Shown: piece after piece, positions 28,388 to 44,939 of the stretch | Layout of the letters: every line of letters begins with the position of its first letter | Position numbering within the stretch: position 1 is the stretch's first letter | Assembly (NCBI RefSeq): GCF_017348835.2 | Contig: NZ_CP071375.1 | DNA length: 64,000 bases | Source of the DNA: Escherichia coli | Lineage (GTDB): Bacteria > Pseudomonadota > Gammaproteobacteria > Enterobacterales > Enterobacteriaceae | Strand: one strand, 5' to 3' | The notes under the pieces: model-generated | Seen by the model: the letters and a program-made list of their open reading frames with translations, nothing else | What the model was told of the DNA's origin: nothing | Database searches by the model: none | Program-made: the position numbers and the translations under genes

Positions 28388-29434
28388 TTACTCCAGCGCA
28401 TCCCATTTCTCCAGCAGTTCTACTGGAATTTCATTTATTACCTCCGAGAAGCGTTTTCCGACCAGGCGTTCTGCCTGGCGCAGCAAAGGAATGGACGGGC
28501 TGCTCGGTTCGCTGTGCTCAAACCAGCGACGGATAACACGCAGGCGTTCCAGCGCGTCGTTCCGGTCGCGGATCTGCCGGGGTTCTGCGCCGGTCATCGG
28601 TGATATTTCCTCCGAGATACGCACCGGTAGCGCAATCTGCTCTGCCTGCATCTGTTCAGTATGATCGATGGTGGCGTTCTCCGGCTGTTCAGCCTGTGGT
28701 TGTGGCAGGATCTCCGGCGTGGTGCTCTGCACTGCTCCCGGCAACAGGGCTAGCAGTTGCGTCAGACGGGAGAAGTCCGGTGCCTGGTCATTCAGCGTTT
28801 CACGCGCATGGTGTTGCAGCCGCTCAGTGGTCTCTGCTGCCTGGCGAAAGGCATCCAGCGGCAGTGTGCCGCGCGCTTCCAGGTCTGCCAGTTGCTGGCG
28901 TACCGATTCTGGTGCCAGCGCATCCGCCGGACGTAATGCAGATAGCGAACGCTCCACATCCCGTACCTGAAGGCGCATGACAGCATTATTTGACAGTGTA
29001 ATGCCACGAATATCCGCCATTACGCCTTCGTGGTCCAGCAACGCCGCCAGCGCGTTACTGCGTGCCACCGCAGCATCTTCGGCGGTGATATCTTCAGTCG
29101 CGAGCAGTTGAGGATGGATGGCGTCCGGGTACGTGGCGCACAACGTTTCCAGCAGCGTGAGCGTCTCCGCCAGTCCCCTGGCACCGGCCTGCTGGATACG
29201 GCAGCGCAGCAGGACAACCAGAATGCGGATATCTTTGCTGCGCATCAGCAGACGATGGGCGTCCCGCTCAAGCTCCGCCCAGTTAATGTTTTCAGGCGTA
29301 CTGACAAAATCGCCATATTGCGCTTCTTCACGCGGTGCGGCGCGGGTGAACAGCAGCAGGTATTCCGGATCGTACTCCAGATCCGGGCCGCAGGGGCATT
29401 CCGCCGAAATTGGGTCAGACAGGAATATTTCCAT
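28388..29434 (-). CDS. tssA: T6SS TssA-family protein (ImpA N-terminal domain)
   Basis: 348 aa; N-terminal LSDPISAECPCGPDLEYDPEYLL resembles the ImpA_N domain; adjacent to tssG/tssF. Confidence 0.55.
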   Translation of the reverse strand: MEIFLSDPISAECPCGPDLEYDPEYLLLFTRAAPREEAQYGDFVSTPENINWAELERDAHRLLMRSKDIRILVVLLRCRIQQAGARGLAETLTLLETLCATYPDAIHPQLLATEDITAEDAAVARSNALAALLDHEGVMADIRGITLSNNAVMRLQVRDVERSLSALRPADALAPESVRQQLADLEARGTLPLDAFRQAAETTERLQHHARETLNDQAPDFSRLTQLLALLPGAVQSTTPEILPQPQAEQPENATIDHTEQMQAEQIALPVRISEEISPMTGAEPRQIRDRNDALERLRVIRRWFEHSEPSSPSIPLLRQAERLVGKRFSEVINEIPVELLEKWDALE

Positions 29435-29444
29435 TTAATTATCC

Positions 29445-30473
29445 TCAGTGCGCCAGGTAGTGTTCTGGTTCGAAAATCATGCCCGTCACCGGGTTGTCGT
29501 GCATGGCTTTACCCGCCCATGCGGTCCAACCCAGTTGGTACGGACCACCGGTAACAGCCGGAGGGGCGGCGTGGGGCTTTAGCTGTAGCTCAATTTCCCA
29601 GCAGTATTCAAAACCACTAAAGGCGCGGACCAGTTCGGTCAGGACAGGCAGGTTATTGCCGCCAGGCAGAAAACGTCGGTAATCCTCCAGCGTCAGCGGG
29701 CCGATAACCAGCCGGAACTTATACTGCATGTCCGGCACGGCCTGGCCGATAAGTGCACCATTGCCAATAACGGAAGAGGGGGCAGGCATCCCCAGCCGGG
29801 TTATCTCATCGTCCGCCACGGTTATCCAGTGCAGCACATACTCTTGTATCCGGAAAGATACACCGAAATAGTGCGCCAGCGTGGTGGCCAGACCGTCCGG
29901 ATTGCGGGACTCACGCACCAGATGGGCCGATGCCGCCAGACGAGCGTGATCCGGCAACGGGCTGTCGGCACTCTCCCGCAAATCCTGCCCGCTGAGGCTG
30001 GCGACATAAAAGGCAAAGCGGTCATGTTGCGGTTTATCCAGACCGCCCCCGGCGGACTGGGCGCTGCGCCATGCCTGGTAAAACTGCGTCAGCCAGCGGT
30101 GATGAAAAAGATCAGAAAAACGGGTTAGCGTCGGGTCTCTTCGGCTTTCAGTCCGGTTGCGCGCCAGTTCGCTGTAGTGCAGCGGCAGTGGACCGTTCGG
30201 CCCCCACAGCCCGAGACTGTACAAACTGATGTGCAAGCGCTCTTCCTGCCAGCTCACACTGGCGATTTCCCGTGGCGCAAAGGTCAGCGCGGGCGTTTGT
30301 CCGAGGCGAAATTTTTCTATCCGTGGTTGCCAGGTGTTGCCCGCCGGAACGCGACACAACTGCACATCAACGCGGCGCATCAGGTTCAGAAAACCGTAAC
30401 GCCAGGGGGTTTCCTGCGCCTGAGTGAAATCGTTGCTCATACGCTTCCCCGCTGTCCCGCCCTGACAGGCCAA
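29445..30473 (-). CDS. tssG: T6SS baseplate protein TssG
   Basis: 342 aa ORF immediately downstream of tssF with overlap; size and position typical of TssG. Confidence 0.55.
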   Translation of the reverse strand: MACQGGTAGKRMSNDFTQAQETPWRYGFLNLMRRVDVQLCRVPAGNTWQPRIEKFRLGQTPALTFAPREIASVSWQEERLHISLYSLGLWGPNGPLPLHYSELARNRTESRRDPTLTRFSDLFHHRWLTQFYQAWRSAQSAGGGLDKPQHDRFAFYVASLSGQDLRESADSPLPDHARLAASAHLVRESRNPDGLATTLAHYFGVSFRIQEYVLHWITVADDEITRLGMPAPSSVIGNGALIGQAVPDMQYKFRLVIGPLTLEDYRRFLPGGNNLPVLTELVRAFSGFEYCWEIELQLKPHAAPPAVTGGPYQLGWTAWAGKAMHDNPVTGMIFEPEHYLAH

Positions 30474-32320
30474 GTCATAATTTTACCGCGCTGCATGCTG
30501 TGCAGCGTCATCTGCGAGAAGGTATTAATGGAAACATGGCGGGCGATATAGTGTTCCAGCACCAGGCCGAACAGATACGGACTGATGCCGGAAAAACCTT
30601 CTTCATCCACCGTCAGTTCACAACTGACGCCACGCCCATAGGCCAGTAGTCCGGAACCGGGCAGACGGCGGGTGACCGGGGTCGTTTTACAACCAATCAG
30701 GCTGCGCACCTGGCGCGATTGCGGACTGTCATGAGCAGGAATAAACAGGTTCAGCAGATCTCGCAACGCCTGGCCGCCGGTACGGTGATCCAGATCGGCC
30801 AGCGGCAGATAATTAAAAGATAACTGGCGGATCAACCGCCATGCCATCTCACGTTCAGCCAGCGGGGGCTGCGGCGAGCGTGGCGGGCGGATAAGCCCTA
30901 CGCCCGCCACCGGGATGGCCGCATCCACGGTTAGATCGTCCCGGCCATTGCGGGCAATAAGACAGGGCAGATCGCGGTTAGTGACCATGGCCGTGATGGT
31001 GATGTGGCGCAGATTTTCCGGGTACGGCGCTTCATACTGGTCAACCAGCGACAGGAACACTTCCGAGCCCGTATAGGGGGTACGGGTGCCGTAACGGCGG
31101 GCGTTTTCTGATAAGCGGCGGGGCTCCCGGTGCAGGGAAAAATAACGTCCGTGATTGCCTTCATCATTATTGCGGGTGTGGTAGAGCGGGCGAAAGGCCA
31201 TCTTCCGTGTGGTGTCGGTTTCCAGCCCTTCCACTTCCTGGACCGAGAACACCTCATAATCCAGCGGATGGGTTCTGTCCACCACCAGATGCTGTTCCGT
31301 CGTGCTGTGCGTGACATCGATCCGGGCGGTGACGCGGGGAAACAGGTTGATAACCGGGGTACAGAACAGGCTGAACTGTGCCGCATTTGTCTGGTGGATC
31401 AGCCAGTCCGGCGGCAGGCGGTTCAGCAGGATAACAATCTCCGCCACGCCACCGTCAATTTTCTGTAATCCGGCAGACAGGCCTGTCGGGGTGAAAAAAT
31501 AGAAGCGTTCCGGACAGGCAAAATATTCATGCAGCAGGTTATGACCGTGAAACACGTTCCACGCCAGCGGCAGCAGCCCCTGATCCGGCTCCAGGCCTTC
31601 GTACATAACGGGCTGTTGCAGATTCACATCCAGCGCGCCGTCAAAATGTCCCGGAATGCCAGCCAGGGTCGCGATGGCGCTGGTATGTAGAAGTTCTAAC
31701 AGGTGTGAGGCCGTACGCTCCTCGCCGCAGAGATAAAACGGCAGCCTATCCAGTCCTGCAAGCTGACTGAACGTTAGTTCACCAAAGGTGCGCAGGGTAA
31801 TACGCAGCGCCCCGGCGACGTGAATGTTGGCCGGCAGGTAGCGATGCAGGGCAGGCATATCCGGTGGCGCGGCGGTCAGTCGCGCCTCTTCGATGGCGAG
31901 CGGCCACAGCGTTACATCCTGGCTGCTGCGAAACTGGCAGGCAGTGCTTTCGCCTTCCGGAATGGCGGAGAAAAAGGCCGTGTCGCGCGGGACGGTAAAT
32001 CCTTTCGCCAGATCGCCTTCTTCCGTATCGGGATGCAACTGCGCCACGCTCATTGAGGGCGTGGGTGTGACGTAATTGGGGCTGACCACTTCCAGCAGGC
32101 GCTGGGTGAAACGGGGGAATTCAGCGTCAATTTTTAGCTGCGTGCGGGCGGTCAGGAAGCTGAAGGCCTCGACCATTCGCTCTACATACGGATCGGCAAT
32201 ATCCGTTCCCTGCATGCCCAGCCGGGCGGCGACTTTGGGATGACGGGCGGCAAATTCGGCTCCCGTTTCCCGCAGATAGCTTAGTTCGCGGTTGTAGTAT
32301 TCCAGTAGCCGTGGATCCAT
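30437..32320 (-). CDS. tssF: T6SS baseplate protein TssF
   Basis: 627 aa; N-terminus [36 protein letters not shown] matches the TssF (ImpG/VasA) N-terminal signature as recalled. Confidence 0.75.
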
Positions 32321-32425: not shown

Positions 32426-34591
32426 ATGGCAGAACAGGCAGCGGCGGACCTGTTTGGTGCGTTGCCGGAACCGTCAGGTCTGGTTAAAGCCGCAGTAGCT
32501 GCTGCGCAGGCTGCCGCTGCAGCAGCAGGGATCCCGGATATGGCTGGTGCAGTTCAGGATGCGGCGGCGTCGATTGCTGCCGGTGGACCGGGGGCGCATA
32601 ACGTCACAGTAAGTGGTAGTGCGGTGCCGCCGCAGCTGCTTTTGTTTGCAGGCATGAATGGTTCGGAAGGGCTTGGAAACCTGTTTTCCTACACAGTACA
32701 GCTTAAAACCCCGGATACCCTGAACCTCGGATATGTCTCCCCCGCAGCCAACCTGCCGCTCAAGCCGATGGTGGGCAAAGACCTGTGCGTCAGTATCGAA
32801 CTGGACGGCGGCGGCAAACGGCATATCAGCGGGCTGGTGACAGCGGCGCGGGTGGTGGGCTATGAGGGCCGCTCGGTAACGTATGAATTACGCCTTGAGC
32901 CGTGGCTGAAACTGCTGACCCATACCAGCGACTACAAAGCGTTCCAGAATAAAACCGTGGTGGATATTCTCGATGAAGTACTGGATGAATATTCCTTTCC
33001 GGTGGAAAAGCGGCTGGTGGAAAATTATCCACCCCGCGCCTGGCAGGTGCAGTATGGTGAAACCGACTTCGATTTCATCCAGCGCCTGATGCAGGAATGG
33101 GGGATTTACTGGTGGTTTGAGCACAGCGAGAACAGCCACACGCTGGTGCTGGCGGATGCCATCAATGGTCATAAAGCGTGCCCTGACTCGCCGCTGGTGG
33201 AGTGGCACCAGGAAGGGCTGAAACTGGACAAGGAATTTATCCACACCATTACGGCCAGTGAGAGGCTGCGTACTGGAAAGTGGGTGATGGACGATTTTGA
33301 TTTTATGAAGCCTCGTTCGCTGCTTAAAAGTACCGTGGCTAGTCCGCGTGATACCGGTCATGCTGAATACGAGCATTATGAATGGCCTGGTGATTACTTC
33401 ACTACGGGCGAAGGCGAGATGCTGACGCGCATTCGTATGGAAGCGCAGCGCAGCCCCGGCAGCCGGGCACATGGGGCAGGTCATATCCGCACCCTCATGA
33501 CGGGTTACACCTTTACGCTGATGAATCATCCAACGGCAGAGGTCAACCAGGAATACCTACTGGTACAGACCACGCTGTTTTTACGGGATAATGCGCAGCA
33601 CAGCGGTCAGGAGCAGCATTTTACCTATGTCACCACGTTTGAACTGCACCCCACCAGCGAAGTTTACCGCCCACAGCGAACCCTAAGCAAACCCCACACC
33701 AAAGGCCCGCAGAGCGCCATCGTCACCGGCCCGGCAGGGCAGGAAATCTGGACGGATAAATATGGCCGGGTGAAGGTGCAGTTTGGCTGGGACCGTTACC
33801 TGTACGATGCGGAACAGCCGTACACGCCGGTGGCCGCCATCACGGGGCGCGGAGAGAGCCGGAAAATCTGGTATTACCACACGGACCTGACGGGCACGGT
33901 ACAGGAGGTGACCGCGCCGGACGGGACGCTGGTGTGGGCGGGCTATCAGGCGGGATTTGGTGAAAACCGGGGCGACATCAGCAACAGCGGGGCGTACTTT
34001 GAGCAGCCGCTGCGGCTGCCGGGGCAGTATTATGATGAAGAGACGGGGCTGCACTATAATCTGTTCAGATATTATGCGCCGGAGTGCGGGAGGTTTATCA
34101 GTCAGGATCCGATTTCGATCCGTGGGGGGCTGAATCTTTACCGGTATGCGCCTAATCCGCTGAGATGGATTGATCCGCTTGGATTAGACTGGAATTATCA
34201 TTTAACAGATAGTGATGGTAAGGTTTATTATCATGGACGTGCAAGTGATAATGCGTCAATGGAAGATGTTGCCCGTCGTCACAGCAATACAACAGGAGCT
34301 GATAAGGCAAGATTTGGAGAAACAGATACCATGACACGAATAACTGAGCCGGGTACGCCAAAATTAACAGCACAAGGTGTGGAAGGTATTGCCATAGGTG
34401 ATAATACTATCGGGCGAAGAGCTGATAACGGTAATAGGGGTCGGGGTAATAATATTCGGGGTGTTAATCCCAATGCAACCAATGCTACTGAAAAACTAAA
34501 TGCGGGTAAAGAATTTTTAAATGGACGAATACCAAGTGAAATGACTGGTGAAACATTGACAGGTAAGGAGTATTTTGAATCAAAATGTTAA
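32426..34591 (+). CDS. Chimeric protein: VgrG N-terminal (gp27-like) region fused in frame to an Rhs C-terminal core segment and a C-terminal toxin domain
   Basis: VgrG-like up to KVQFGWDR, then [21 protein letters not shown]...[27 protein letters not shown], which is nearly identical to 38200-38586 in the downstream Rhs; then an AT-rich unique tail. Confidence 0.7.
33795..34185 (+). repeat. Rhs 3' core segment, copy inside the VgrG chimera
   Basis: Near-identical nucleotide sequence to the Rhs core 3' ends at 38200-38586, 40930-41319 and 43520-43907. Confidence 0.8.
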
Positions 34592-35463
34592 AATTAACCG
34601 ATGTAAATAAAAATGCATTAAGAATACTTAAAAAATATAACGTGCTGGCAGAAGGTGACATAATAAGAGGTCATCCATTAAGTGAGCGGGATTTGAAATA
34701 TGTTGAGGCGCATTGTATTACAACTGAAGAACGAGCCTTTTTAAATGAAAAAGGTTTGGGGTTCGGATTTATTTCTGTGACTCATGATGAAGCATTAAGA
34801 GATTCGTTTACATATTTTAAATCTTCTAATAAAAATGATGTGACAGCTTCTTTTCTGGTGAGCCTGAGTAGTGCCAGATTAGACTACAGAAGTGGATTGT
34901 CTGCATTTGCAATTATGCAAACAATGCCGATGCATGGCTTTGAACCAAATCAGGCTTCTTTTTGTAAAGTATGTTCCGCAGAAAAATATAAAAAGCATTT
35001 TGATCTAACCAGCTTAAATCAGACTCGTTTCTTTAGTGGTTCTCTAGCAGTCTTTAAAACTCCTTATGAAATTTCTTTTTTTCTGGAGCAACAATCAAAA
35101 TTGGAAGTCGTTCAGCCAACCGAAAAAGATTTCTCTATCTTTAATGCGATTTTGAAAATAATTGTTGACGCAGAATCTGGCGAAAAACTGACATCAATAA
35201 TTAAAAAAATTAGAGCGATTGATGGCTTCAGGATAACTACAGATCAGTGTCGATGTCTTCTGGAAACGCTGGGATTTTGTGGGATTCTGGAAACGAAGGA
35301 ACACAAAGGGTATCTGACTTACTTTACTAATCCTGGACTGGCTCCGAGTAAATCTCATAGTTCTAACTGGGCCTATCCGGTTGATTTCTGGACCGGAGGG
35401 GATGGAATAAATCGCGAAGCGTTAAAATTCTGGTTTGGTGAATATAAAGAAATTGTTATCTGA
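34585..35463 (+). CDS. Putative immunity protein for the chimera's C-terminal toxin
   Basis: 292 aa AT-rich ORF; start overlaps the toxin stop (ATGTTAA), which suggests translational coupling. Confidence 0.45.
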
Positions 35464-36097: not shown

Positions 36098-38932
36098 TTG
36101 GTCTTACCGGCCTTATCGGATACCGGCGCATCTTTCGATGCCACCGCCCGGCCCACCATTGAGGTACAGCCGTGCGTGCAACACAAAAAAGACGCTGGCG
36201 CGTCATGTGTCGCCGATAAGACTTATTCAGGAGACCAATCCCGACGCCTGATTTTGCAGACGCGGCATAACGATACAACGATCGCGAAATGGCGACAAAC
36301 CCCTTTCCCGGAAGGCGGCTCGCAAAATCAGAAATATCACAGGGAAAGACAGAGCGCCGCAACGCGGCGGGATGTACCGCTTCACGTACAACGAAAACCA
36401 TTTTCCGGTAGCGGTGGAACTCCCCGGCGAACGCAGGTAACGCTGGAATACGACACCCTGAGCCGGGTGGTGAAAGAGACGGACCCGGCAGGCCGGGTGA
36501 CACAGACGCAGTGGAACGGCAGTTTTGCTGAAATCACGCGCCGGGCACTGGATGACGACCACGTATGGAAGGCGGATTACAACGAACACGGCCAGGTGAT
36601 ACGGGAGACGGACCCGGAAGGGCGCGTCACGCGCTACGGGTATGATGAACAGGGGCTGGCGGTCAGCCGCACGGATGCGCGGGGCGGCGAGGCTGCGCTG
36701 GCGCATGATGCGCGCGGCCAGCTGAGGCGTTACACCGACTGTTCAGGGCGTGCCACGGGTTATGAATACGATGAAGACGGCAACCTGACGGTGGTGACGG
36801 ACGCGGAGGGGAAAACGGTACGTATCCGCTATAACCGTCTGGGACTGCCGGAGACGGTAAATCATCCCGGTAAACAGCAGGACCGTTACACGTGGAACGC
36901 GCTGGGGTTACTGAGCAGCCACCGTCGCATCACAGGCAGTGTGCAGTCCTGGCAGTATACGCCGCGCGGTCTGCTGGCGCTCCACGTAGATGAAGAGAAA
37001 CGGGAGACGCGCTGGCATTATACCGCGGAGGGATGGATTGCCAGTCTGAGCAACGGCAACGGAGCGCTTTACCGGTTCAGTCACGATGCGGACGGACGGC
37101 TGACGGGAGAACAGCGCCCGGACGGTCTGATACGGATGTTTGTGCTGAATGCGGGCGGGTATCCGGTCATCATCCAGACGCAGGGTACAGAAGGCGGGGG
37201 GCGCAATGAACAGCAGGAGCGTGACGCGCTGGGCCGCCTGCTGCGCAGTGACACGCAGCACAGTACACGGACCTTCAGCTACAACCGTCTTGACCAGATA
37301 ACGGAAGTGACGCTCACCCCGACGAAAGAAGGGGAACGGCTGCACCACATGCAGGCGGACACGGTGCGCTTTGCGTATGACCGCAGCGGCTGGCTGACGG
37401 CAGAGCACAGCGTGCACGGCAGCATAAAATATCAGCGTGACGCGCTGGGCAATCCCACCGATATCACGTTGCCGGACGGGCAGCATCTCAGTCATCTTTA
37501 CTACGGCAGCGGACATCTGCTCCAGACGGCACTGGACGGTATCACGGTCAGCGAATATGAGCGTGACAGTCTGCACCGTCAGGTGATGCGCACGCAGGGG
37601 AAACTGGCGACGTTCAGCGGCTACAACGCCGACAACCGGTTAAGCTGGCAGCGCAGTCTGCCAGGTGGCAGCCAGAATCCACAGCAGACCGGTAACCCCC
37701 CGGCGCAGAACGACAGCGTGACGGCGCGGGACTATATCTGGAATGCGGACGGTGAGGTCGGCGGCATCAATGACAAACTGCGCGGTTGCCTGGTGTTCAG
37801 CTATGACCGCAGCGGCTGGCTGACCAGTCGCACGGGTCAGATGTACGACCATGACCATTATTATTACGACAAAGCGGGCAACCTGCTGACGGACGAGTAT
37901 CAGAGCGCGGTGATGGATAACCGCCTGCCGGGCTACGGGCGTGACCGTTACCGCTATAACGAATGGGGCGAACTGACAGAGCGCAGGGACCAGCAACTGG
38001 AGTGGAATGCGCAGGGCCAGTTAACGCGGGTCATCAGCAGCAACAGCGAGACGCGGTATCAGTATGATGCGCTGGGCAGGCGTATCAGCAAGGCGACCAG
38101 CAATCTCCATACCGACCGGGGAGAACGAAGCCGGACAACGTTTGTGTGGGAAGGGGTCCGGCTGTTGCAGGAGACAACGTGGCAGGGAAAGCGGACGTAC
38201 CTGTACGACGCGGAACAGCCGTACACGCCGGTGGCCGCCATCACCGGGCGCGGAGAGAGCCGGAAAATCTGGTATTACCACACGGACCTGACGGGCACGG
38301 TACAGGAGGTGACCGCGGCGGACGGGACGCTGGTGTGGGCGGGCTATCAGGCGGGGTTCGGAGAAAACCGGGGCGACATCAGCAACAGCGGGGCGTATTT
38401 TGAACAGCCGCTGCGGCTGCCGGGGCAGTATTATGATGAAGAGACGGGGCTGCACTATAATCTGTTCAGATATTATGCGCCGGAGTGCGGGAGGTTCGTA
38501 AGCCAGGATCCGATTTCGATCCGGGGTGGTCTGAATCTTTACCGGTATGCGCCGAATCCGATTACTTGGATCGATCCGTGGGGATTGGCAAAGGGGGATT
38601 ATGGTAAAATGCCTACGTTCCCTGGTTGGCAGAAACATCATAATATTCCACAAAATATGGCTACTCATTCGGCAATTGTTGACTCTGGATTTGATATACA
38701 TAATAGTCGTAACATTACAACCTTGCCAAAAACTGGAAGTATAGATACTGCCAGAACAGTGCACAGTGGAATGCACACAGGAGATTATGACAGGATGGTA
38801 AAAAATGCTTTAGATCAAATTGACTCGTTGAATGCTTCCCCTGAGATCAAAAAAATGCATATAGAAGCCTTATCTGATGATATTGGCAATAAATTGAGAA
38901 CAAAACAAATTACGTTAAATGCTGCATGTTGA
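36098..38932 (+). CDS. Rhs / YD-repeat protein, 5'-truncated and frameshifted near 36425, with a C-terminal toxin domain after DPWGL
   Basis: YD repeats (RYxYD, YxYDxxG); frame switch at gaacgcaggtaacgctg; core ends ...NPITWIDPWGL, followed by an AT-rich tip. Confidence 0.7.
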   Translation: MVLPALSDTGASFDATARPTIEVQPCVQHKKDAGASCVADKTYSGDQSRRLILQTRHNDTTIAKWRQTPFPEGGSQNQKYHRERQSAATRRDVPLHVQRKPFSGSGGTPRRTQVTLEYDTLSRVVKETDPAGRVTQTQWNGSFAEITRRALDDDHVWKADYNEHGQVIRETDPEGRVTRYGYDEQGLAVSRTDARGGEAALAHDARGQLRRYTDCSGRATGYEYDEDGNLTVVTDAEGKTVRIRYNRLGLPETVNHPGKQQDRYTWNALGLLSSHRRITGSVQSWQYTPRGLLALHVDEEKRETRWHYTAEGWIASLSNGNGALYRFSHDADGRLTGEQRPDGLIRMFVLNAGGYPVIIQTQGTEGGGRNEQQERDALGRLLRSDTQHSTRTFSYNRLDQITEVTLTPTKEGERLHHMQADTVRFAYDRSGWLTAEHSVHGSIKYQRDALGNPTDITLPDGQHLSHLYYGSGHLLQTALDGITVSEYERDSLHRQVMRTQGKLATFSGYNADNRLSWQRSLPGGSQNPQQTGNPPAQNDSVTARDYIWNADGEVGGINDKLRGCLVFSYDRSGWLTSRTGQMYDHDHYYYDKAGNLLTDEYQSAVMDNRLPGYGRDRYRYNEWGELTERRDQQLEWNAQGQLTRVISSNSETRYQYDALGRRISKATSNLHTDRGERSRTTFVWEGVRLLQETTWQGKRTYLYDAEQPYTPVAAITGRGESRKIWYYHTDLTGTVQEVTAADGTLVWAGYQAGFGENRGDISNSGAYFEQPLRLPGQYYDEETGLHYNLFRYYAPECGRFVSQDPISIRGGLNLYRYAPNPITWIDPWGLAKGDYGKMPTFPGWQKHHNIPQNMATHSAIVDSGFDIHNSRNITTLPKTGSIDTARTVHSGMHTGDYDRMVKNALDQIDSLNASPEIKKMHIEALSDDIGNKLRTKQITLNAAC
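36848..38586 (+). repeat. Rhs conserved core repeat, copy 1
   Basis: About 1.7 kb, near-identical to 39583-41319; 3' part near-identical to 42465-43907. Confidence 0.85.
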
Positions 38933-39547: not shown

Positions 39548-41656
39548 ATCACGCGGTGCGGGTATGACGAACAGTTCCTGCCGGAGACGGTCAGCCACCC
39601 CGGTAAACAGCAGGACCGTTACACCTGGAACGCACTGGGGTTACTGAGCAGCCATCGTCGCATCACGGGCAGTGTGCAGTCCTGGCAGTATACGCCGCGC
39701 GGGATGCTGGCGCGCCATACGGATGAAGAGAAACGGGAGACGCGCTGGCAGTACACCCCGGAAGGGCTGGTTGCCAGTCTGAGCAACGGCAACGGAGCGC
39801 TTTACCGGTTCAGTCACGATGCGGACGGACGGCTGACGGGAGAACAGCGCCCGGACGGTCTGATACGGATGTTTGTGCTGAATGCGGGCGGGTATCCGGT
39901 CATCATCCAGACGCAGGGTACAGAAGGCGGGGGGCGCAATGAACAGCAGGAGCGTGACGCGCTGGGCCGCCTGCTGCGCAGTGACACGCAGCACAGTACA
40001 CGGACCTTCAGCTACAACCGTCTTGACCAGATAACGGAAGTGACGCTCACCCCCACGGAAGAAGGGGAACGGCTGCACCACATGCAGGCGGACACGGTGC
40101 GCTTTGCGTATGACCGCAGCGGCTGGCTGACGGCAGAGCACAGCGTGCACGGCAGCATAAAATATCAGCGTGACGCGCTGGGCAATCCCACCGACATCAC
40201 GTTACCGAACGGGCAGCACCTCAGCCATCTTTACTACGGCAGCGGGCATCTGCTCCAGACGGCACTGGACGGTATCACGGTCAGTGAATATGAGCGTGAC
40301 AGTCTGCACCGTCAGGTGATGCGCACGCAGGGGAAACTGGCGACGTTCAGCGGCTACAACGCCGACAACCGGTTAAGCTGGCAGCGCAGCCTGCCAGGTG
40401 GCAGCCAGAACCCACAGCAGGCCGGTAACCCCCCGGCGCAGAAAGACAGCGTGACAGCGCGGGATTATATCTGGAACGCAGACGGTGAAGTCGGCGGCAT
40501 CAATGACAAACTGCGCGGTTGCCTGGTGTTCAGCTATGACCGCAGCGGCTGGCTGACCAGTCGCACGGGTCAGATGTACGACCATGACCATTATTATTAC
40601 GACAAAGCGGGCAATCTGCAGACGGATGAGCATCAGGGAGCGGTGCCGGATAACCGCCTGCCGGGCTACGGGCGTGACCGCTACCGCTATAACGAATGGG
40701 GCGAACTGACAGAGCGCAGGGACCAGCAACTGGAGTGGAATACGCAGGGCCAGTTAACGCGGGTCATCAGCAGCAACAGCGAGACGCGGTATCAGTATGA
40801 TGCGCTGGGCAGGCGTATCAGCAAGGCGACCAGCAATCTCCATACCGACCGGGGAGAACGAAGCCGGACAACGTTTGTGTGGGAAGGGTTCCGGCTGTTG
40901 CAGGAGACAACGTGGCAGGGAAAGCGGACATACCTGTACGACGCGGAACAGCCGTACACGCCGGTGGCGGCCATCACGGGGCGCGGAGAGAGCCAGAAAA
41001 TCTGGTATTACCACACGGACCTGACGGGCACGGTACACGAGGTAACCGCGCCGGACGGGACGCTGGTGTGGGCGGGCTACCAGGCGGGATTTGGCGAAAA
41101 CCGGGGCGACATCAGCAACAGCGGGGCGTACTTTGAGCAGCCGCTGCGACTGCCGGGGCAGTACTTTGACGAAGAAACAGGGCTGCATTACAATCTGTTC
41201 AGGTATTATGCGCCGGAGTGCGGGAGGTTCGTAAGCCAGGATCCGATAGGGTTGCTTGGTGGGCTGAACTTATATGCTTATGCGCCTAATCCGCTGTCAT
41301 GGATCGATCCGTTAGGTTTGACTCCATGTGCAAATGGGGGGAATGCTAAAAAACATGGTGGCACAGGACATAATAATTTTATTGATAATCTTATTGCGGA
41401 TGCTCGCAGTCAGGGTGCTACAAATATCAGGAAAAACCAATGGCAGGTAGATGTTAATGGAAATGTTGTTGGTAAAAATAGACCGGATGTTCAATTTGAT
41501 TTAAATGGTAAACATTATAATATTGAGGTTGATACAACAATAAAAGGCAGCGTTGGTCACCAAAATACTATACCTACACTTGATCCCAACTCAAGAAATA
41601 CATTTTGGCTAATTGATGACTTAGGGAATATTTTAAATGGCCACTCAACCATCTGA
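39548..41656 (+). pseudogene. Orphan 5'-truncated Rhs fragment with a distinct C-terminal toxin domain
   Basis: Rhs homology starts abruptly right after the upstream immunity gene; ORF track gives 39674..41656; core ends DPLGL, then a unique tip. Confidence 0.65.
39583..41319 (+). repeat. Rhs conserved core repeat, copy 2
   Basis: Near-identical to 36848-38586. Confidence 0.85.
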
Positions 41657-42221
41657 TAATAAAAAATTAGTGTTTGCTGTAGTGAACAGTGATTTTAATG
41701 ATATAGAAAGAACTATCCATAATGGATTGAACTGGCCGAGTGAACCAATAAGTAGTCGAAAACTTATTGAGGAAATACACTTGACTATTCAACGTGGTGG
41801 GGTCTTGCCGTCCGAGGGGGTTTTCTATTATCCGTGTATAAATGACAGCAAATTAATTTTTCTGTCTAATTTATCTGATGGATGGGACTCTTTACTTTAT
41901 TGCCTGTCAAAACAGAATAAATCTAGCTATCTACTGTTTAGGTTATTGATGGGGGAATACCCTCTGATGGAAATGAGTTTTATAGAGTCAGGGAAAACAA
42001 TACGTTTAATTAGAGTGATAAAAGAAAATAAATGGATTTTTTATGAGGTCGGGGAACCGTTATGGTTTGAAGAAAAGGAAAACTATTCAAAAAGAAGAAT
42101 CGCAGATAGAATTACTTATGATCTCTTACTCTCCTATTCACGGAAAAATGGCATTGACTTTGATTCCCCCGCATTTTTTAAAACGGAAAAAGAATCACTA
42201 TGGTTGAATGAAATACGATAG
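41637..42221 (+). CDS. Putative immunity protein for the second orphan toxin
   Basis: 194 aa AT-rich ORF overlapping the toxin 3' end. Confidence 0.4.
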   Translation: MATQPSDNKKLVFAVVNSDFNDIERTIHNGLNWPSEPISSRKLIEEIHLTIQRGGVLPSEGVFYYPCINDSKLIFLSNLSDGWDSLLYCLSKQNKSSYLLFRLLMGEYPLMEMSFIESGKTIRLIRVIKENKWIFYEVGEPLWFEEKENYSKRRIADRITYDLLLSYSRKNGIDFDSPAFFKTEKESLWLNEIR

Positions 42222-42232
42222 TTTATTTAAAT

Positions 42233-42271
42233 AAAAAGCCGGAAAAGAAATTAAACTTTCCCGGCTTTTTT
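42233..42271. terminator. Bidirectional hairpin terminator
   Basis: aaaaagccggaaaag...ctttcccggctttttt; homologous to the hairpin at 44613-44650. Confidence 0.5.
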
Positions 42272-42276
42272 ATTAT

Positions 42277-42465
42277 TTAACTCTCGTTCAGCACACTAAA
42301 CATCCCGTCCCGCATCCCCTTAACTGCCTGTTTAACCTGATAAAGCTCCCTGCGCAGTTCCTGTACTTCGTTGTTATCCGCAAGCAGGATCAGACATCCC
42401 TCCGAGATCTTCACGGTAACGCCCGTGCCGATCTCAAATCCCGCTTCTCTCAGCCATTTGGCGCT
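42277..42465 (-). pseudogene. SymE-like toxin gene, 5'-truncated by the adjoining Rhs fragment
   Basis: C-terminal 60 aa AKWLREAGFEIGTGVTVKISEGCLILLADNN... resemble SymE; the upstream part of the ORF is antisense Rhs sequence. Confidence 0.5.
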
Positions 42466-43907
42466 GAATGCGGGCGGGTTTCCGGTCATCATCCAGACGC
42501 AGGGCACAGAGGGCGGGGTGCGTAATGAGCGGCAGGAGCGTGATGCGCTGGGCCGCCTGCTGCGCAGTGACACGCAGCACAGTACACGGACCTTCAGCTA
42601 CAACCGTCTTGACCAGATAACGGAAGTGACGCTCACCCCCACGGAAGAAGGGGAACGGCTGCACCACATGCAGGCGGACACGGTGCGCTTTGCGTATGAC
42701 CGCAGCGGCTGGCTGACGGCAGAGCACAGCGTGCACGGCAGCATAAAATATCAGCGTGACGCGCTGGGCAATCCCACCGACATCACGTTACCGAACGGGC
42801 AGCACCTCAGCCATCTTTACTACGGCAGCGGGCATCTGCTCCAGACGGCACTGGACGGTATCACGGTCAGTGAATATGAGCGTGACAGTCTGCACCGTCA
42901 GGTGATGCGCACGCAGGGGAAACTGGCGACGTTCAGCGGCTACAACGCCGACAACCGGTTAAGCTGGCAGCGCAGCCTGCCAGGTGGCAGCCAGAACCCA
43001 CAGCAGGCCGGTAACCCCCCGGCGCAGAAAGACAGCGTGACAGCGCGGGATTATATCTGGAACGCAGACGGTGAAGTCGGCGGCATCAATGACAAACTGC
43101 GCGGTTGCCTGGTGTTCAGCTATGACCGCAGCGGCTGGCTGACCAGTCGCACGGGTCAGATGTACGACCATGACCATTATTATTACGACAAAGCGGGCAA
43201 TCTGCAGACGGATGAGCATCAGGGAGCGGTGCCGGATAACCGCCTGCCGGGCTACGGGCGTGACCGCTACCGCTATAACGAATGGGGCGAACTGACAGAG
43301 CGCAGGGACCAGCAACTGGAGTGGAATACGCAGGGCCAGTTAACGCGGGTCATCAGCAGCAACAGCGAGACGCGGTATCAGTATGATGCGCTGGGCAGGC
43401 GTATCAGCAAGGCGACCAGCAATCTCCATACCGACCGGGGAGAACGAAGCCGGACAACGTTTGTGTGGGAAGGGTTCCGGCTGTTGCAGGAGACAACGTG
43501 GCAGGGAAAGCGGACATACCTGTACGACGCGGAACAGCCGTACACGCCGGTGGCGGCCATCACGGGGCGCGGAGAGAGCCAGAAAATCTGGTATTACCAC
43601 ACGGACCTGACGGGCACGGTACACGAGGTAACCGCGCCGGACGGGACGCTGGTGTGGGCGGGCTACCAGGCGGGATTTGGTGAAAACCGGGGCGACATCA
43701 GCAACAGCGGGGCGTACTTTGAGCAGCCGCTGCGGCTGCCGGGGCAGTATTATGATGAAGATACGGGGCTGCACTATAATCTGTTCAGATATTATGCGCC
43801 GGAGTGCGGGCGGTTTATCAGTCAGGACCCGATAGGGCTGGCGGGAGGAATAAACCTATATGCTTATGCGCCTAATCCGCTAAGTTATATTGATCCTCTT
43901 GGGCTTT
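42465..43907 (+). repeat. Rhs conserved core repeat, copy 3
   Basis: Near-identical to 37146-38586 and 39880-41319. Confidence 0.85.
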
Positions 43908-44335
43908 GTAAATTAAGGGGAAGCGATGGGCGCTACAGAAGTGCACAGAATATTCAGGAAGAAATAGGCGGCCTACCCAATTTTGCAGGAAAAACTCCAG
44001 GAGAAATACGACAAACTTTGCGTAATCGAGGTTATTCGTCGGTACAAGCGTATAGTGGAGGAGAGGTCTGGACAAAAGCATTACCTGACGGAAATACTGT
44101 TGCAGTGAGGCTTGATCCGGCAAATCCTCGCTCACCTTCACATTATGCTGATGCTGTACCTCATGCTCATATTGAAACAGTTCCAACATCCAGTGTTTCT
44201 AATGGGAATTATCGCCCGCGAGACGTGACTGGCAGGCATACTGCCACTGGTGGGGTTTCTGATCGAGGAACAAATCCGAATCATAACGCTGATGTTTACA
44301 TTCCAATGTCTCCGGGACGATTCCCATATGATTAA
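42465..44335 (+). pseudogene. Orphan 5'-truncated Rhs fragment with a third distinct C-terminal toxin domain
   Basis: Rhs homology starts at gctgaatgcgggcggg (matches 37139 in copy 1); core ends DPLGL at 43907, followed by a unique tip. Confidence 0.65.
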
Positions 44336-44346
44336 TGTGAGGTTTT

Positions 44347-44610
44347 ATGAATATCCGAAATCAATATAATGAAGCCTTAAATAAATTAGAAGTTGATGTT
44401 AATGATGGTTTGAGAGATTTAATAAACATATATTGTGTGGCTATTGATTCTTTTGAAAATGATATCGTTGACTCGATTGCTTTATACGTGATTGATATGG
44501 GAAATAAAGATACTTGTCGATATCTACAAGAAGTCTTATCAGAGAATGAAGATCCTTATTTAGTAAAAGAATTTAATGCATGGATAAAAGAAATTAAGAA
44601 AAAATATTAA
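44347..44610 (+). CDS. Putative immunity protein for the third orphan toxin
   Basis: 87 aa AT-rich acidic ORF immediately after the toxin. Confidence 0.4.
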   Translation: MNIRNQYNEALNKLEVDVNDGLRDLINIYCVAIDSFENDIVDSIALYVIDMGNKDTCRYLQEVLSENEDPYLVKEFNAWIKEIKKKY

Positions 44611-44612
44611 AA

Positions 44613-44650
44613 TAAAAGCCGGGAAGGTTATAAAATCTTCCCGGCTTTTT
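44613..44650. terminator. Bidirectional hairpin terminator
   Basis: aaaagccgggaagg...cttcccggcttttt. Confidence 0.5.
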
Positions 44651-44654
44651 ATTT

Positions 44655-44939
44655 TTAATTCTCGTTCAGTACACTAAACATCCCGTCCCGCATCCCCTTA
44701 ACCGCCTGTTTAACCTGATAAAGTTCCCTGCGCAGTTCCTGTACTTCGTTGTTATCGGCAAGCAGGATCAGGCAGCCTTCCGAGATCTTCACAGTAACGC
44801 CCGTGCCGATCGAAAATTCCGCTTCTCTCAGCCATTTGGCGCTGATTTTGATCACCGGCGTGTCGCTGCTGTTGGGCAGATATCCTACGGTACAACGGCG
44901 TTGTGTTTTGGAAATGGTGACTTCTGGCGTAATATCATG
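44655..44939 (-). CDS. SymE-like toxin homolog; no canonical ATG at the 5' end of the open frame
   Basis: The open frame reads ...RRCTVGYLPNSSDTPVIKISAKWLREAEFSIGTGVTVKISEGCLILLA..., resembling K-12 SymE (LTVSY...ITLKGQWLEAAGF...GTAVDVKVMEGCIVLTA) as recalled; ORF track starts at 44855. Confidence 0.5.
   Translation of the reverse strand, partial: HDITPEVTISKTQRRCTVGYLPNSSDTPVIKISAKWLREAEFSIGTGVTVKISEGCLILLADNNEVQELRRELYQVKQAVKGMRDGMFSVLNEN

What the first reader, a model, noticed from the sequence alone, without database searches (positions are those of the whole stretch)
43908..44610. Third orphan Rhs toxin tip of unknown family with a small (87 aa) acidic putative immunity protein
The roughly 140 aa tip after DPLGL (CKLRGSDGRYRSAQNIQ...HAHIETVPTS...) carries no motif I recognise. 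The downstream 87 aa ORF is AT-rich and acidic, which is typical of small immunity proteins for nuclease or RNase toxins.
Basis: inference. Interest (0 to 1): 0.55.

Follow-up and report, generated by a model that had tools for sequence, protein, structure and literature searches.

The report
Orphan Rhs DNase-like toxin tip, mutated
This is a leftover Rhs toxin tip with its immunity gene in a decayed E. coli type VI secretion island; the tip belongs to an unnamed toxin family distantly related to the PT7 DNase toxin, and this copy has lost a key catalytic histidine.

Summary
An Rhs core fragment ends in DPLGL at 43906. A 142-aa tip follows (43907-44335), then an 87-aa acidic ORF (44347-44610) with a Shine-Dalgarno site and a strong terminator.

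No Pfam, NCBIfam, PADLOC or PHROGs family matches either protein. An exhaustive search still found about 100 cluster representatives that carry the same C-terminal domain. It sits on Rhs, PAAR, filamentous-haemagglutinin, eCIS and HINT carriers.

The window copy has Tyr at 131, where the 78 other aligned sequences (77 homologues plus a second enterobacterial tip variant) have His. A full-length PAAR-Rhs in E. coli JNE151685 also has His. So this copy is probably attenuated or dead.

The 87-aa protein is all-helical and unrelated to PIM7. It keeps its position next to the tip across Enterobacterales and probably in a Bacteroidota genome. Both genes are under purifying selection.

Verdict: an ordinary orphan Rhs toxin-immunity module carrying an uncharacterised branch of the PT7 fold. 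Interest is modest.

The parts
42371..43906 (+). N-terminally truncated Rhs core fragment of the orphan. It ends with the DPIGL...DPLGL autoproteolysis motif; the last Leu codon is 43904-43906. The TTG at 42371 is only the mechanical ORF start, not a demonstrated start codon.
   Evidence: NCBIfam TIGR03696 Rhs_assc_core at residues 445-512 and YD repeats; 96-97% identical to the two upstream Rhs fragments
43907..44335 (+). Toxin tip: 142 codons plus stop, pI 9.2. Its domain is a remote homologue of the PT7 DNase toxin.
44108..44116 (+). Codons for R68-L69-D70 (the VRxDP motif). They align with R35 and D37 of PT7.
   Evidence: R68 invariant and D70 in 78 of 79 sequences; hhalign alignment; PT7 D37A abolishes toxicity
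44162..44176 (+). Codons for H86-A-H88-I89-E90 (the HxH motif). They align with H47-V-H49-L50 of PT7. Most of the family has K at position 89.
   Evidence: PT7 H47A abolishes toxicity
44297..44299 (+). TAC codon, Tyr131. All 78 other sequences in the alignment have His here (CAC in close relatives). It aligns with PT7 H73. This is a probable inactivating substitution.
   Evidence: Column count; DNA alignment with five relatives; PT7 H73A abolishes toxicity
44339..44342 (+). GAGG Shine-Dalgarno site, 4 nt before the ATG of the immunity ORF.
   Evidence: Sequence
44347..44610 (+). Putative cognate immunity gene: 87 aa, pI 4.4, five helices.
   Evidence: adjacency to the tip in E. coli, Providencia, Brenneria and Entomohabitans; probable homologue next to a family toxin in Algibacter
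44614..44649 (.). Hairpin of 16 pairs flanked by A-run and T-run. It is terminator-like and lies between the convergent immunity and symE-like genes.
44655..44855 (-). symE-like type I toxin ORF that closes the module. A 93% identical copy of this junction lies at 42268-42467, at the 5' end of this orphan.
   Evidence: NCBIfam PRK13605 SymE, E 8e-8; repeat D5; PGAP name in relatives

Best explanation
The region is the last unit of an array of orphan Rhs toxin-immunity modules in a decayed aspV T6SS-1 island of E. coli. When this tip sits on an intact PAAR-Rhs protein, the expected route is as follows. The tip is enclosed in the Rhs shell, cut free after DPLGL, and delivered by the type VI secretion system into a neighbouring cell. 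There it acts as a small metal-dependent DNase of the PT7 fold, using the Asp of VRxDP, the HxH pair and the C-terminal His of the HIP motif. Sister cells are protected by the 87-aa acidic helical protein encoded 11 nt downstream, which most likely binds over the basic active-site face. In the window this does not happen. The fragment has no N-terminal PAAR or translation start, the island keeps only three T6SS core genes, and the tip carries His131Tyr at the equivalent of a residue essential for PT7 toxicity. The tip is therefore most likely a silent, attenuated relic or a recombination reserve. The immunity gene remains intact and could still protect against relatives that fire the active toxin. 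Shown here: the anatomy, the family, the fold match, the motif equivalence, the substitution, the synteny and the selection. Inferred: DNase chemistry, the mode of immunity binding, loss of activity, and current expression.
Confidence: 0.62

Rival explanations
1. The fold and family are the same, but the chemistry differs. The toxin would be an RNase or tRNase, or would cleave another phosphodiester substrate, using His, Lys and Glu general acid-base catalysis rather than a metal-dependent DNase mechanism.
For: Most of the family has a conserved K57, R68, HxHKE and a DD motif that PT7 lacks. Such residues are typical of metal-independent RNases (my own knowledge). One member gave a weak Pfam hit to PBECR3, a Barnase/EndoU/colicin-E5/RelE-like nuclease, at E 0.03. 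The PT7 DNase evidence rests on mutants.
Confidence: 0.2
2. The Tyr131 allele is still an active toxin, and the module is a functional reserve that can be recombined onto a full-length Rhs elsewhere in the genome.
For: The tip ORF is otherwise intact, with no frameshift, unlike the rhsE-locus copies in E2348/69-type strains. dN/dS between the window and JNE151685 is 0.21. About 1.5 kb of 96-97% identical core sequence gives a substrate for recombination. Tyr can take part in metal or phosphate chemistry in some nucleases (my own knowledge).
Against: The position is His in all 78 other aligned sequences across phyla. The equivalent H73A change abolishes PT7 toxicity. The window holds no intact Rhs and only a T6SS remnant.
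Confidence: 0.25
3. The 87-aa ORF is not the immunity protein. It would be an unrelated small gene, for example a phage protein or an accessory or adaptor factor.
For: It matches no immunity family in Pfam or NCBIfam. Its fold is a generic helical hairpin bundle. One source labels an identical-length relative 'Phage protein' and another 'MafI family immunity protein', so the labels disagree. Other branches of the toxin family have different downstream genes of 118, 141 and 219 aa.
Against: It lies 10-12 nt after the tip's stop codon in every enterobacterial locus examined, on the same strand. It is acidic while the toxin is basic. It is under purifying selection. It persists alone where the toxin has been destroyed by an IS element or a frameshift, as orphan immunity genes do. 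A probable homologue sits in the same position in a Bacteroidota genome.
Confidence: 0.08

Closest known systems
PT7(Bc)-PIM7 polymorphic toxin-immunity pair of Bacillus cereus (PDB 8OWU; Nachmias et al., bioRxiv 10.1101/2021.10.19.465003)
   Different: The relationship is detectable only by profile-profile and structure comparison, at 23-26% identity. HMMER gives no hit. The tip is about 45 residues longer, with an N-terminal helix and two insertions. Most of the family has the extra conserved residues K89, E90 and D113. The carrier is Rhs/PAAR (T6SS) rather than LXG (T7SS). The immunity protein is an 87-aa all-helical protein, whereas PIM7 is 117 aa and is described as having an alpha1-betaA loop. 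The paper lists PT7 in Firmicutes and Acinetobacter, not in E. coli.
Orphan rhs toxin-immunity modules downstream of main rhs genes, as described in Salmonella Typhimurium, E. coli and Dickeya by Koskiniemi, Hayes and colleagues (from my own knowledge)
   Same: It is a truncated Rhs core fragment sharing near-identical sequence with upstream copies. It has the DPxGL boundary, a low-G+C variable tip and a tightly linked immunity gene, and the units are arranged in tandem.
   Different: There is no intact main rhs gene and no functional T6SS cluster in the locus. The tip carries a substitution in a catalytic motif.
Colicin E-type DNase and Im immunity pairs such as E9/Im9 (from my own knowledge)
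   Same: This is a functional analogy only: a basic DNase toxin neutralised by a helical acidic immunity protein of about 85 aa.

Membership tests
Rhs orphan toxin-immunity module | Rhs-associated core domain ending in the DPxGL cleavage motif directly before the variable tip | tested here: met
   TIGR03696 at residues 445-512, E 6e-25; the sequence reads ...DPIGLAGGINLYAYAPNPLSYIDPLGL|CKLRG
Rhs orphan toxin-immunity module | The fragment lacks the N-terminal part (PAAR, first YD repeats) and shares core sequence with upstream rhs copies | tested here: met
   The RHS_core model is matched only at positions 1154-1261, plus a few YD repeats; repeats D1-D3 are 94-99% identical
Rhs orphan toxin-immunity module | A small gene on the same strand immediately downstream that travels with the tip | tested here: met
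PT7 toxin family (Nachmias et al.) | Direct sequence similarity to PT7. The authors required DIAMOND E <= 0.001 and at least 80% coverage. | tested here: not met
   phmmer of the tip and hmmsearch of the family profile against PDB sequences, which include 8OWU, gave no hit at E <= 10. PT7's own search returned only Firmicutes-type 78-aa proteins. DIAMOND itself was not run.
PT7 toxin family (Nachmias et al.) | Same three-dimensional fold as the 8OWU toxin chain | tested here: met
PT7 toxin family (Nachmias et al.) | Conservation of the residues needed for toxicity (D37, H47, H73) | tested here: inconclusive
   In the family as a whole the aligned positions are conserved: D70 in 78 of 79, H86 in 79 of 79, H131 in 78 of 79. 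In the window copy D70 and H86 are present but position 131 is Tyr.
PT7 toxin family (Nachmias et al.) | Mg-dependent, EDTA-sensitive endo-DNase activity | not testable with these tools
   Needs purified protein
PT7 toxin family (Nachmias et al.) | PIM7-type cognate immunity protein | tested here: not met
MafI family immunity protein (a UniRef label on one relative) | Match to a curated MafI model | tested here: not met
   An NCBIfam scan of the 87-aa protein at E <= 1 found no family, and Pfam found none. The label appears on one UniRef entry only.

The most novel reading that the evidence does not exclude
The roughly 120-aa domain with the motifs GGxVWTK, VRxDP, HxHKE, GNY, DD and HIP is a distinct, still unnamed superfamily partner of PT7. 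It has spread across T6SS, T5SS, eCIS and HINT-type carriers in several phyla and has its own helical immunity family. The enterobacterial Rhs clade has lost K89 and the DD motif yet stays under strong purifying selection, so it may have a changed substrate or cofactor requirement. Characterising it would define a new nuclease subfamily and a new immunity fold.
Probability: 0.3. Interest if true: 0.5.

Novelty: new member of a known kind. Interest (0 to 1): 0.36.

Why it matters
The result names a function for a toxin tip that public annotation skips. In every RefSeq E. coli genome inspected, PGAP ends the Rhs pseudogene at DPLGL and leaves the 430-bp tip unannotated. PT7 relatives, meanwhile, are labelled 'transposase'.

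It links an unnamed family of about 100 clusters to a solved structure and an assayed activity. That gives testable catalytic residues and a candidate new immunity family.

It also offers a natural experiment. The Tyr131 allele in the window and the His131 allele on an intact PAAR-Rhs in strain JNE151685 differ at a predicted catalytic residue.

For E. coli biology the consequence is small. This is a decayed orphan module whose main likely present-day value is the retained immunity gene.

Tried and rejected
- **Curated libraries.** Pfam, NCBIfam, PADLOC and PHROGs gave no significant family for the tip or the 87-aa protein. HMMER against PDB sequences with the tip, the 87-aa protein and the family profile gave nothing meaningful. 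Foldseek of the tip model against the PDB gave no hit at E <= 0.001.
- **BECR-type RNase.** This rested on one weak PBECR3 hit in one member at E 0.03. I rejected it as not significant.
- **MafI immunity label.** No model supports it.
- **Downstream genes of other family members.** The 219-aa ORF (L011) and the 108-aa ORF (L021) share a short D-[SA]-[IV] motif by eye but are not significantly similar to the 87-aa protein. The 118-aa ORF in L019 looks unrelated. Only the Algibacter 82-aa ORF aligned.
- **Collection scans.** The search for related loci with the family alignment failed for lack of a conserved 7-10 column stretch. The single-protein scan of species-representative genomes returned only three loci.
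- **Short PT7 query.** I recovered the full PT7 sequence by padding the primer-derived fragments with X and searching the PDB.

Full report
**1. What is in the sequence**

ORF 42371..44335 (+) encodes 654 aa. Its first 512 residues are Rhs YD-repeat and core sequence ending ...DPIGLAGGINLYAYAPNPLSYIDPLGL. NCBIfam places the Rhs-associated core domain at residues 445-512.

It runs 142 aa to the stop at 44333-44335.

An 87-aa ORF follows at 44347..44610. GAGG lies 4 nt upstream of its ATG. A 16-pair hairpin with a T-run follows at 44614-44649.

G+C falls from 60% in the core part to 46% in the tip and 26% in the small ORF. The tip is basic (pI 9.2) and the small protein acidic (pI 4.4).

**2. 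Context**

The window is the E. coli aspV island, next to yafV-ivy-fadE. Only impA, tssG and tssF of the T6SS-1 cluster remain. They are followed by:
- a vgrG::Rhs-C-terminus chimera (32426..34591);
- three N-terminally truncated Rhs fragments, each with its own tip and downstream gene.

The Rhs core end is present four times at 94-97% identity. The arrangement matches strain PE164.

A symE-like ORF on the minus strand closes each of the last two units, at 42277..42573 and 44655..44855. No intact Rhs protein is encoded in the window.

**3. Distribution in E. coli**

The 791-bp tip-plus-immunity stretch is in 21 of 5426 complete E. coli genomes. It occurs at three loci.
- **aspV island, 4 genomes, 100% identical to the window.** In 14EC033 the core fragment is further truncated by an IS3 element.
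- **rhsE locus between ansP and pptA, three genomes of the ~94%-identity group inspected (E2348/69, RM14723, EC12; 16 genomes fall in the 90-95% band).** The module sits behind a vgrG pseudogene. In the two copies aligned, E2348/69 and RM14723, the tip has a +1 frameshift.
- **rhsC locus (ybfA-ybgA), strain JNE151685.** Here the tip ends an intact 1576-aa protein with PAAR, DUF6531 and Rhs domains. The same 87-aa gene and a symE-like gene follow.

So a deployable version exists. In every RefSeq record inspected, PGAP stops the Rhs pseudogene at DPLGL and leaves the tip unannotated.

**4. The tip belongs to a real but unnamed family**

The word-indexed search found only nine close fragments. 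The exhaustive phmmer scan of 1.84 billion cluster representatives found 106 proteins at E <= 1e-3 and 72 at E <= 1e-10. The match is almost always at the extreme C-terminus, on proteins of up to 5789 aa.

Carriers include RHS, PAAR, Tox-PAAR-like, eCIS core, PT-HINT, PT-TG and DUF6861 and a filamentous haemagglutinin. This is the signature of a polymorphic-toxin domain.

The 79-sequence alignment gives the consensus GGxVWTK..DGNTAAVRxDP...ADEVPHAHKExVPT..V.NGNY....DDxG....HIP. R68 and H86 are invariant. K57, D70, H88, K89, E90, D113 and H131 are at least 90% conserved. No Pfam family matches any member's toxin domain.

**5. Fold and remote homology**

AlphaFold2 on this alignment gave a confident model, with pLDDT 92.9 and pTM 0.87.

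PT7 comes from the systematic polymorphic-toxin screen of Nachmias et al. (bioRxiv 10.1101/2021.10.19.465003). That paper reports the following:
- a new fold;
- EDTA-sensitive, non-specific endo-DNase activity;
- no activity on tRNA;
- a Mg ion modelled in the pocket;
- complete loss of toxicity for D37A, H47A and H73A.

I rebuilt parts of PT7 from the mutagenesis primers in Table S11. I then recovered the whole chain by an X-padded search of the PDB.

hhalign of my family against PT7 alone gives 77.8%, E 1.9e-5. Against a 39-sequence PT7 family alignment it gives 93.7%, E 1.9e-7 over 81 columns.

The alignments place R68/D70 on R35/D37, H86 on H47, H88 on H49, I89 on L50, and position 131 (HIP) on H73 (HIP). 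Structure, profile and functional residues thus agree. I treat the tip as a remote homologue of PT7 and infer a metal-dependent DNase.

Plain HMMER does not connect the two families. The tip has an extra N-terminal helix and two insertions. Most of the family has K89, E90 and D113, which PT7 lacks. It is therefore a sister branch, not a member of PT7 as its authors defined it.

**6. The window copy is probably crippled**

At position 131 the window has Tyr, and all 78 other aligned sequences have His.

The DNA alignment shows a single CAC-to-TAC change at 44297-44299. It is absent from JNE151685, E2348/69, RM14723, Providencia and Brenneria. It is not a sequencing error, because four independent complete genomes carry the identical sequence and a database fragment has the same allele (P0005).

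The equivalent H73A change abolishes PT7 toxicity, so I expect this allele to be attenuated or inactive. The other window-specific changes (H49Y, I69L, N142D) fall in variable columns. F139 differs from JNE151685 (Pro) but is shared with Providencia and Brenneria.

The whole enterobacterial clade has I or L at position 89 and lacks the DD motif. The clade's tip is nevertheless under strong purifying selection, with dN/dS 0.04-0.11 between genera. PT7 itself has Leu at the position equivalent to 89. These clade features therefore need not mean loss of function.

**7. The 87-aa protein**

Forty-five database clusters, all at least 74% identical apart from fragments, come from E. coli, Phytobacter, Providencia, Brenneria, Pectobacterium and Pantoea. 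Nearly all are labelled 'hypothetical protein'.

It lies 10-12 nt after the tip's stop codon in the following loci:
- Providencia: L006, an orphan Rhs with a 90%-identical tip;
- Brenneria;
- Entomohabitans;
- all E. coli loci.

In Pectobacterium it survives alone next to an IS element. dN/dS between genera is 0.14-0.17.

In an Algibacter genome (Bacteroidota), a family toxin 44% identical to the tip is followed by an 82-aa ORF. That ORF aligns with the immunity profile at 76% probability, E 2.3e-5, with 32% identity over 47 columns that include the conserved ...DSIxLxV..GN..T segment.

Other branches of the toxin family have different downstream genes. This is usual for polymorphic toxins.

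I conclude that the 87-aa ORF is the cognate immunity gene. The evidence is synteny, charge complementarity, purifying selection and survival as an orphan. Binding and neutralisation are not shown.

**8. Mechanism, with status of each step**

- Rhs encapsulation, self-cleavage after DPxGL and PAAR/VgrG-mediated T6SS delivery are established knowledge for PAAR-Rhs effectors. They are supported here only by domain content.
- DNase action through D70, H86, H88 and H131 is inferred from PT7.
- Immunity by occlusion of the basic active-site face by the acidic helical protein is inferred by analogy with PT1-PIM1 and PT7-PIM7.
- In the window, the fragment has no start, no intact Rhs and no working T6SS cluster nearby, and it carries Tyr131. 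The most likely present role is a retained immunity gene plus a silent tip. Recombination through the 1.5-kb core repeats remains a theoretical route to reuse.

**9. Novelty and score**

Orphan Rhs toxin-immunity modules are well known. What is new is the assignment of this tip to an unnamed family of about 100 clusters, its remote relationship to PT7/8OWU, a candidate new immunity family, and the natural His131Tyr allele. I rate it a new member of a known kind, of modest interest (0.36).

Noticed in passing
window 32426-34591 (+): One ORF joins a VgrG N-terminal part (TIGR03361, residues 67-458) directly to an Rhs core end (residues 478-587) and a tip. This is a deletion chimera, followed by a 292-aa ORF (34585-35463) with no family match. 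PGAP splits it into a vgrG pseudogene and a short Rhs CDS in strain PE164.
   Followed up: partly
window 28388-32320 (-): Only impA, tssG and tssF of the aspV T6SS-1 cluster remain next to the vgrG remnant. The rest of the secretion apparatus is missing from this locus. Strain 14EC033 shows a different state of decay, with tssE, tagJ, tagK, a clpB remnant and IS2.
   Followed up: partly
window 42219-42534 (+) and 44477-44918 (+): Partial Rfam matches well below gathering score: Ssr1 (Shigella small RNA 1; 149 and 248 bits against 820; E 1e-41 and 1e-71) and isrA (Salmonella island sRNA; E 1.5e-5 and 2e-3). The well-aligned part is the terminator plus the strand antisense to the symE-like genes. 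These described sRNAs seem to correspond to the antisense partner of the symE-like module that flanks each orphan, not to the immunity gene.
   Followed up: partly
window 42277-42573 (-) and 44655-44855 (-); also L002, L006, L007, L010, L015: A symE-like type I toxin gene on the opposite strand follows the immunity gene in E. coli (three loci), Providencia and Brenneria (annotated SymE), and an unchecked minus-strand ORF sits in the same position in Entomohabitans. The 5' end of the orphan Rhs ORF overlaps it antisense. The junction is repeated at 93% identity.
   Followed up: partly
L001 20058-20497; L002 12078-12497; L012 17058-17497: RefSeq (PGAP) ends the Rhs pseudogene at the DPLGL motif and leaves the roughly 430-bp tip unannotated in every genome inspected. 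This explains why so few protein records exist for this toxin. PT7 relatives in Bacillus are named 'transposase'.
   Followed up: yes
L002 12046-12490 and L013 (rhsE locus, E2348/69-type strains): These copies have an extra C in a C-run (GGAAAAACCCCC) that frameshifts the tip, while the immunity gene stays intact. dN/dS of that immunity allele against the window is 0.6-0.9, which suggests relaxed or diversifying selection in that lineage. This rests on only 10-11 differences.
   Followed up: partly
window 39674-41656 (+) and 41637-42221 (+): The preceding orphan has its own tip of about 110 aa (TPCANGGNAKKHGG...) and a 194-aa downstream ORF that overlaps it by 20 nt. Neither has an NCBIfam match beyond the Rhs core. 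In PE164 the fragment before that one (36098-38932) carries an AHH nuclease tip with an Imm11 immunity gene, according to PGAP.
   Followed up: no
L008 4711-6264 (Pectobacterium brasiliense): An immunity homologue (74% identical) stands alone directly after an IS (rve) transposase in a vgrG/DUF4123/PAAR effector island, with no recognisable tip. This is an orphan immunity gene.
   Followed up: no
L021 9789-10115 and L022 1936-2193: The ORFs downstream of two distant family toxins resemble each other at the N-terminus (...SRAV..I.SGD[FY]...). One carries an HDIVDAVDIF segment that recalls NDIVDSIALYV of the 87-aa protein. A longer form of the same immunity family is possible but was not statistically supported.
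   Followed up: partly
P0055 (Gilliamella sp. wkB112 / G. apicola): A 287-aa Rhs fragment from a bee-gut symbiont carries a tip 65% identical to the window's, with HTHIE. This extends the I89 clade beyond the Enterobacteriaceae.
   Followed up: no
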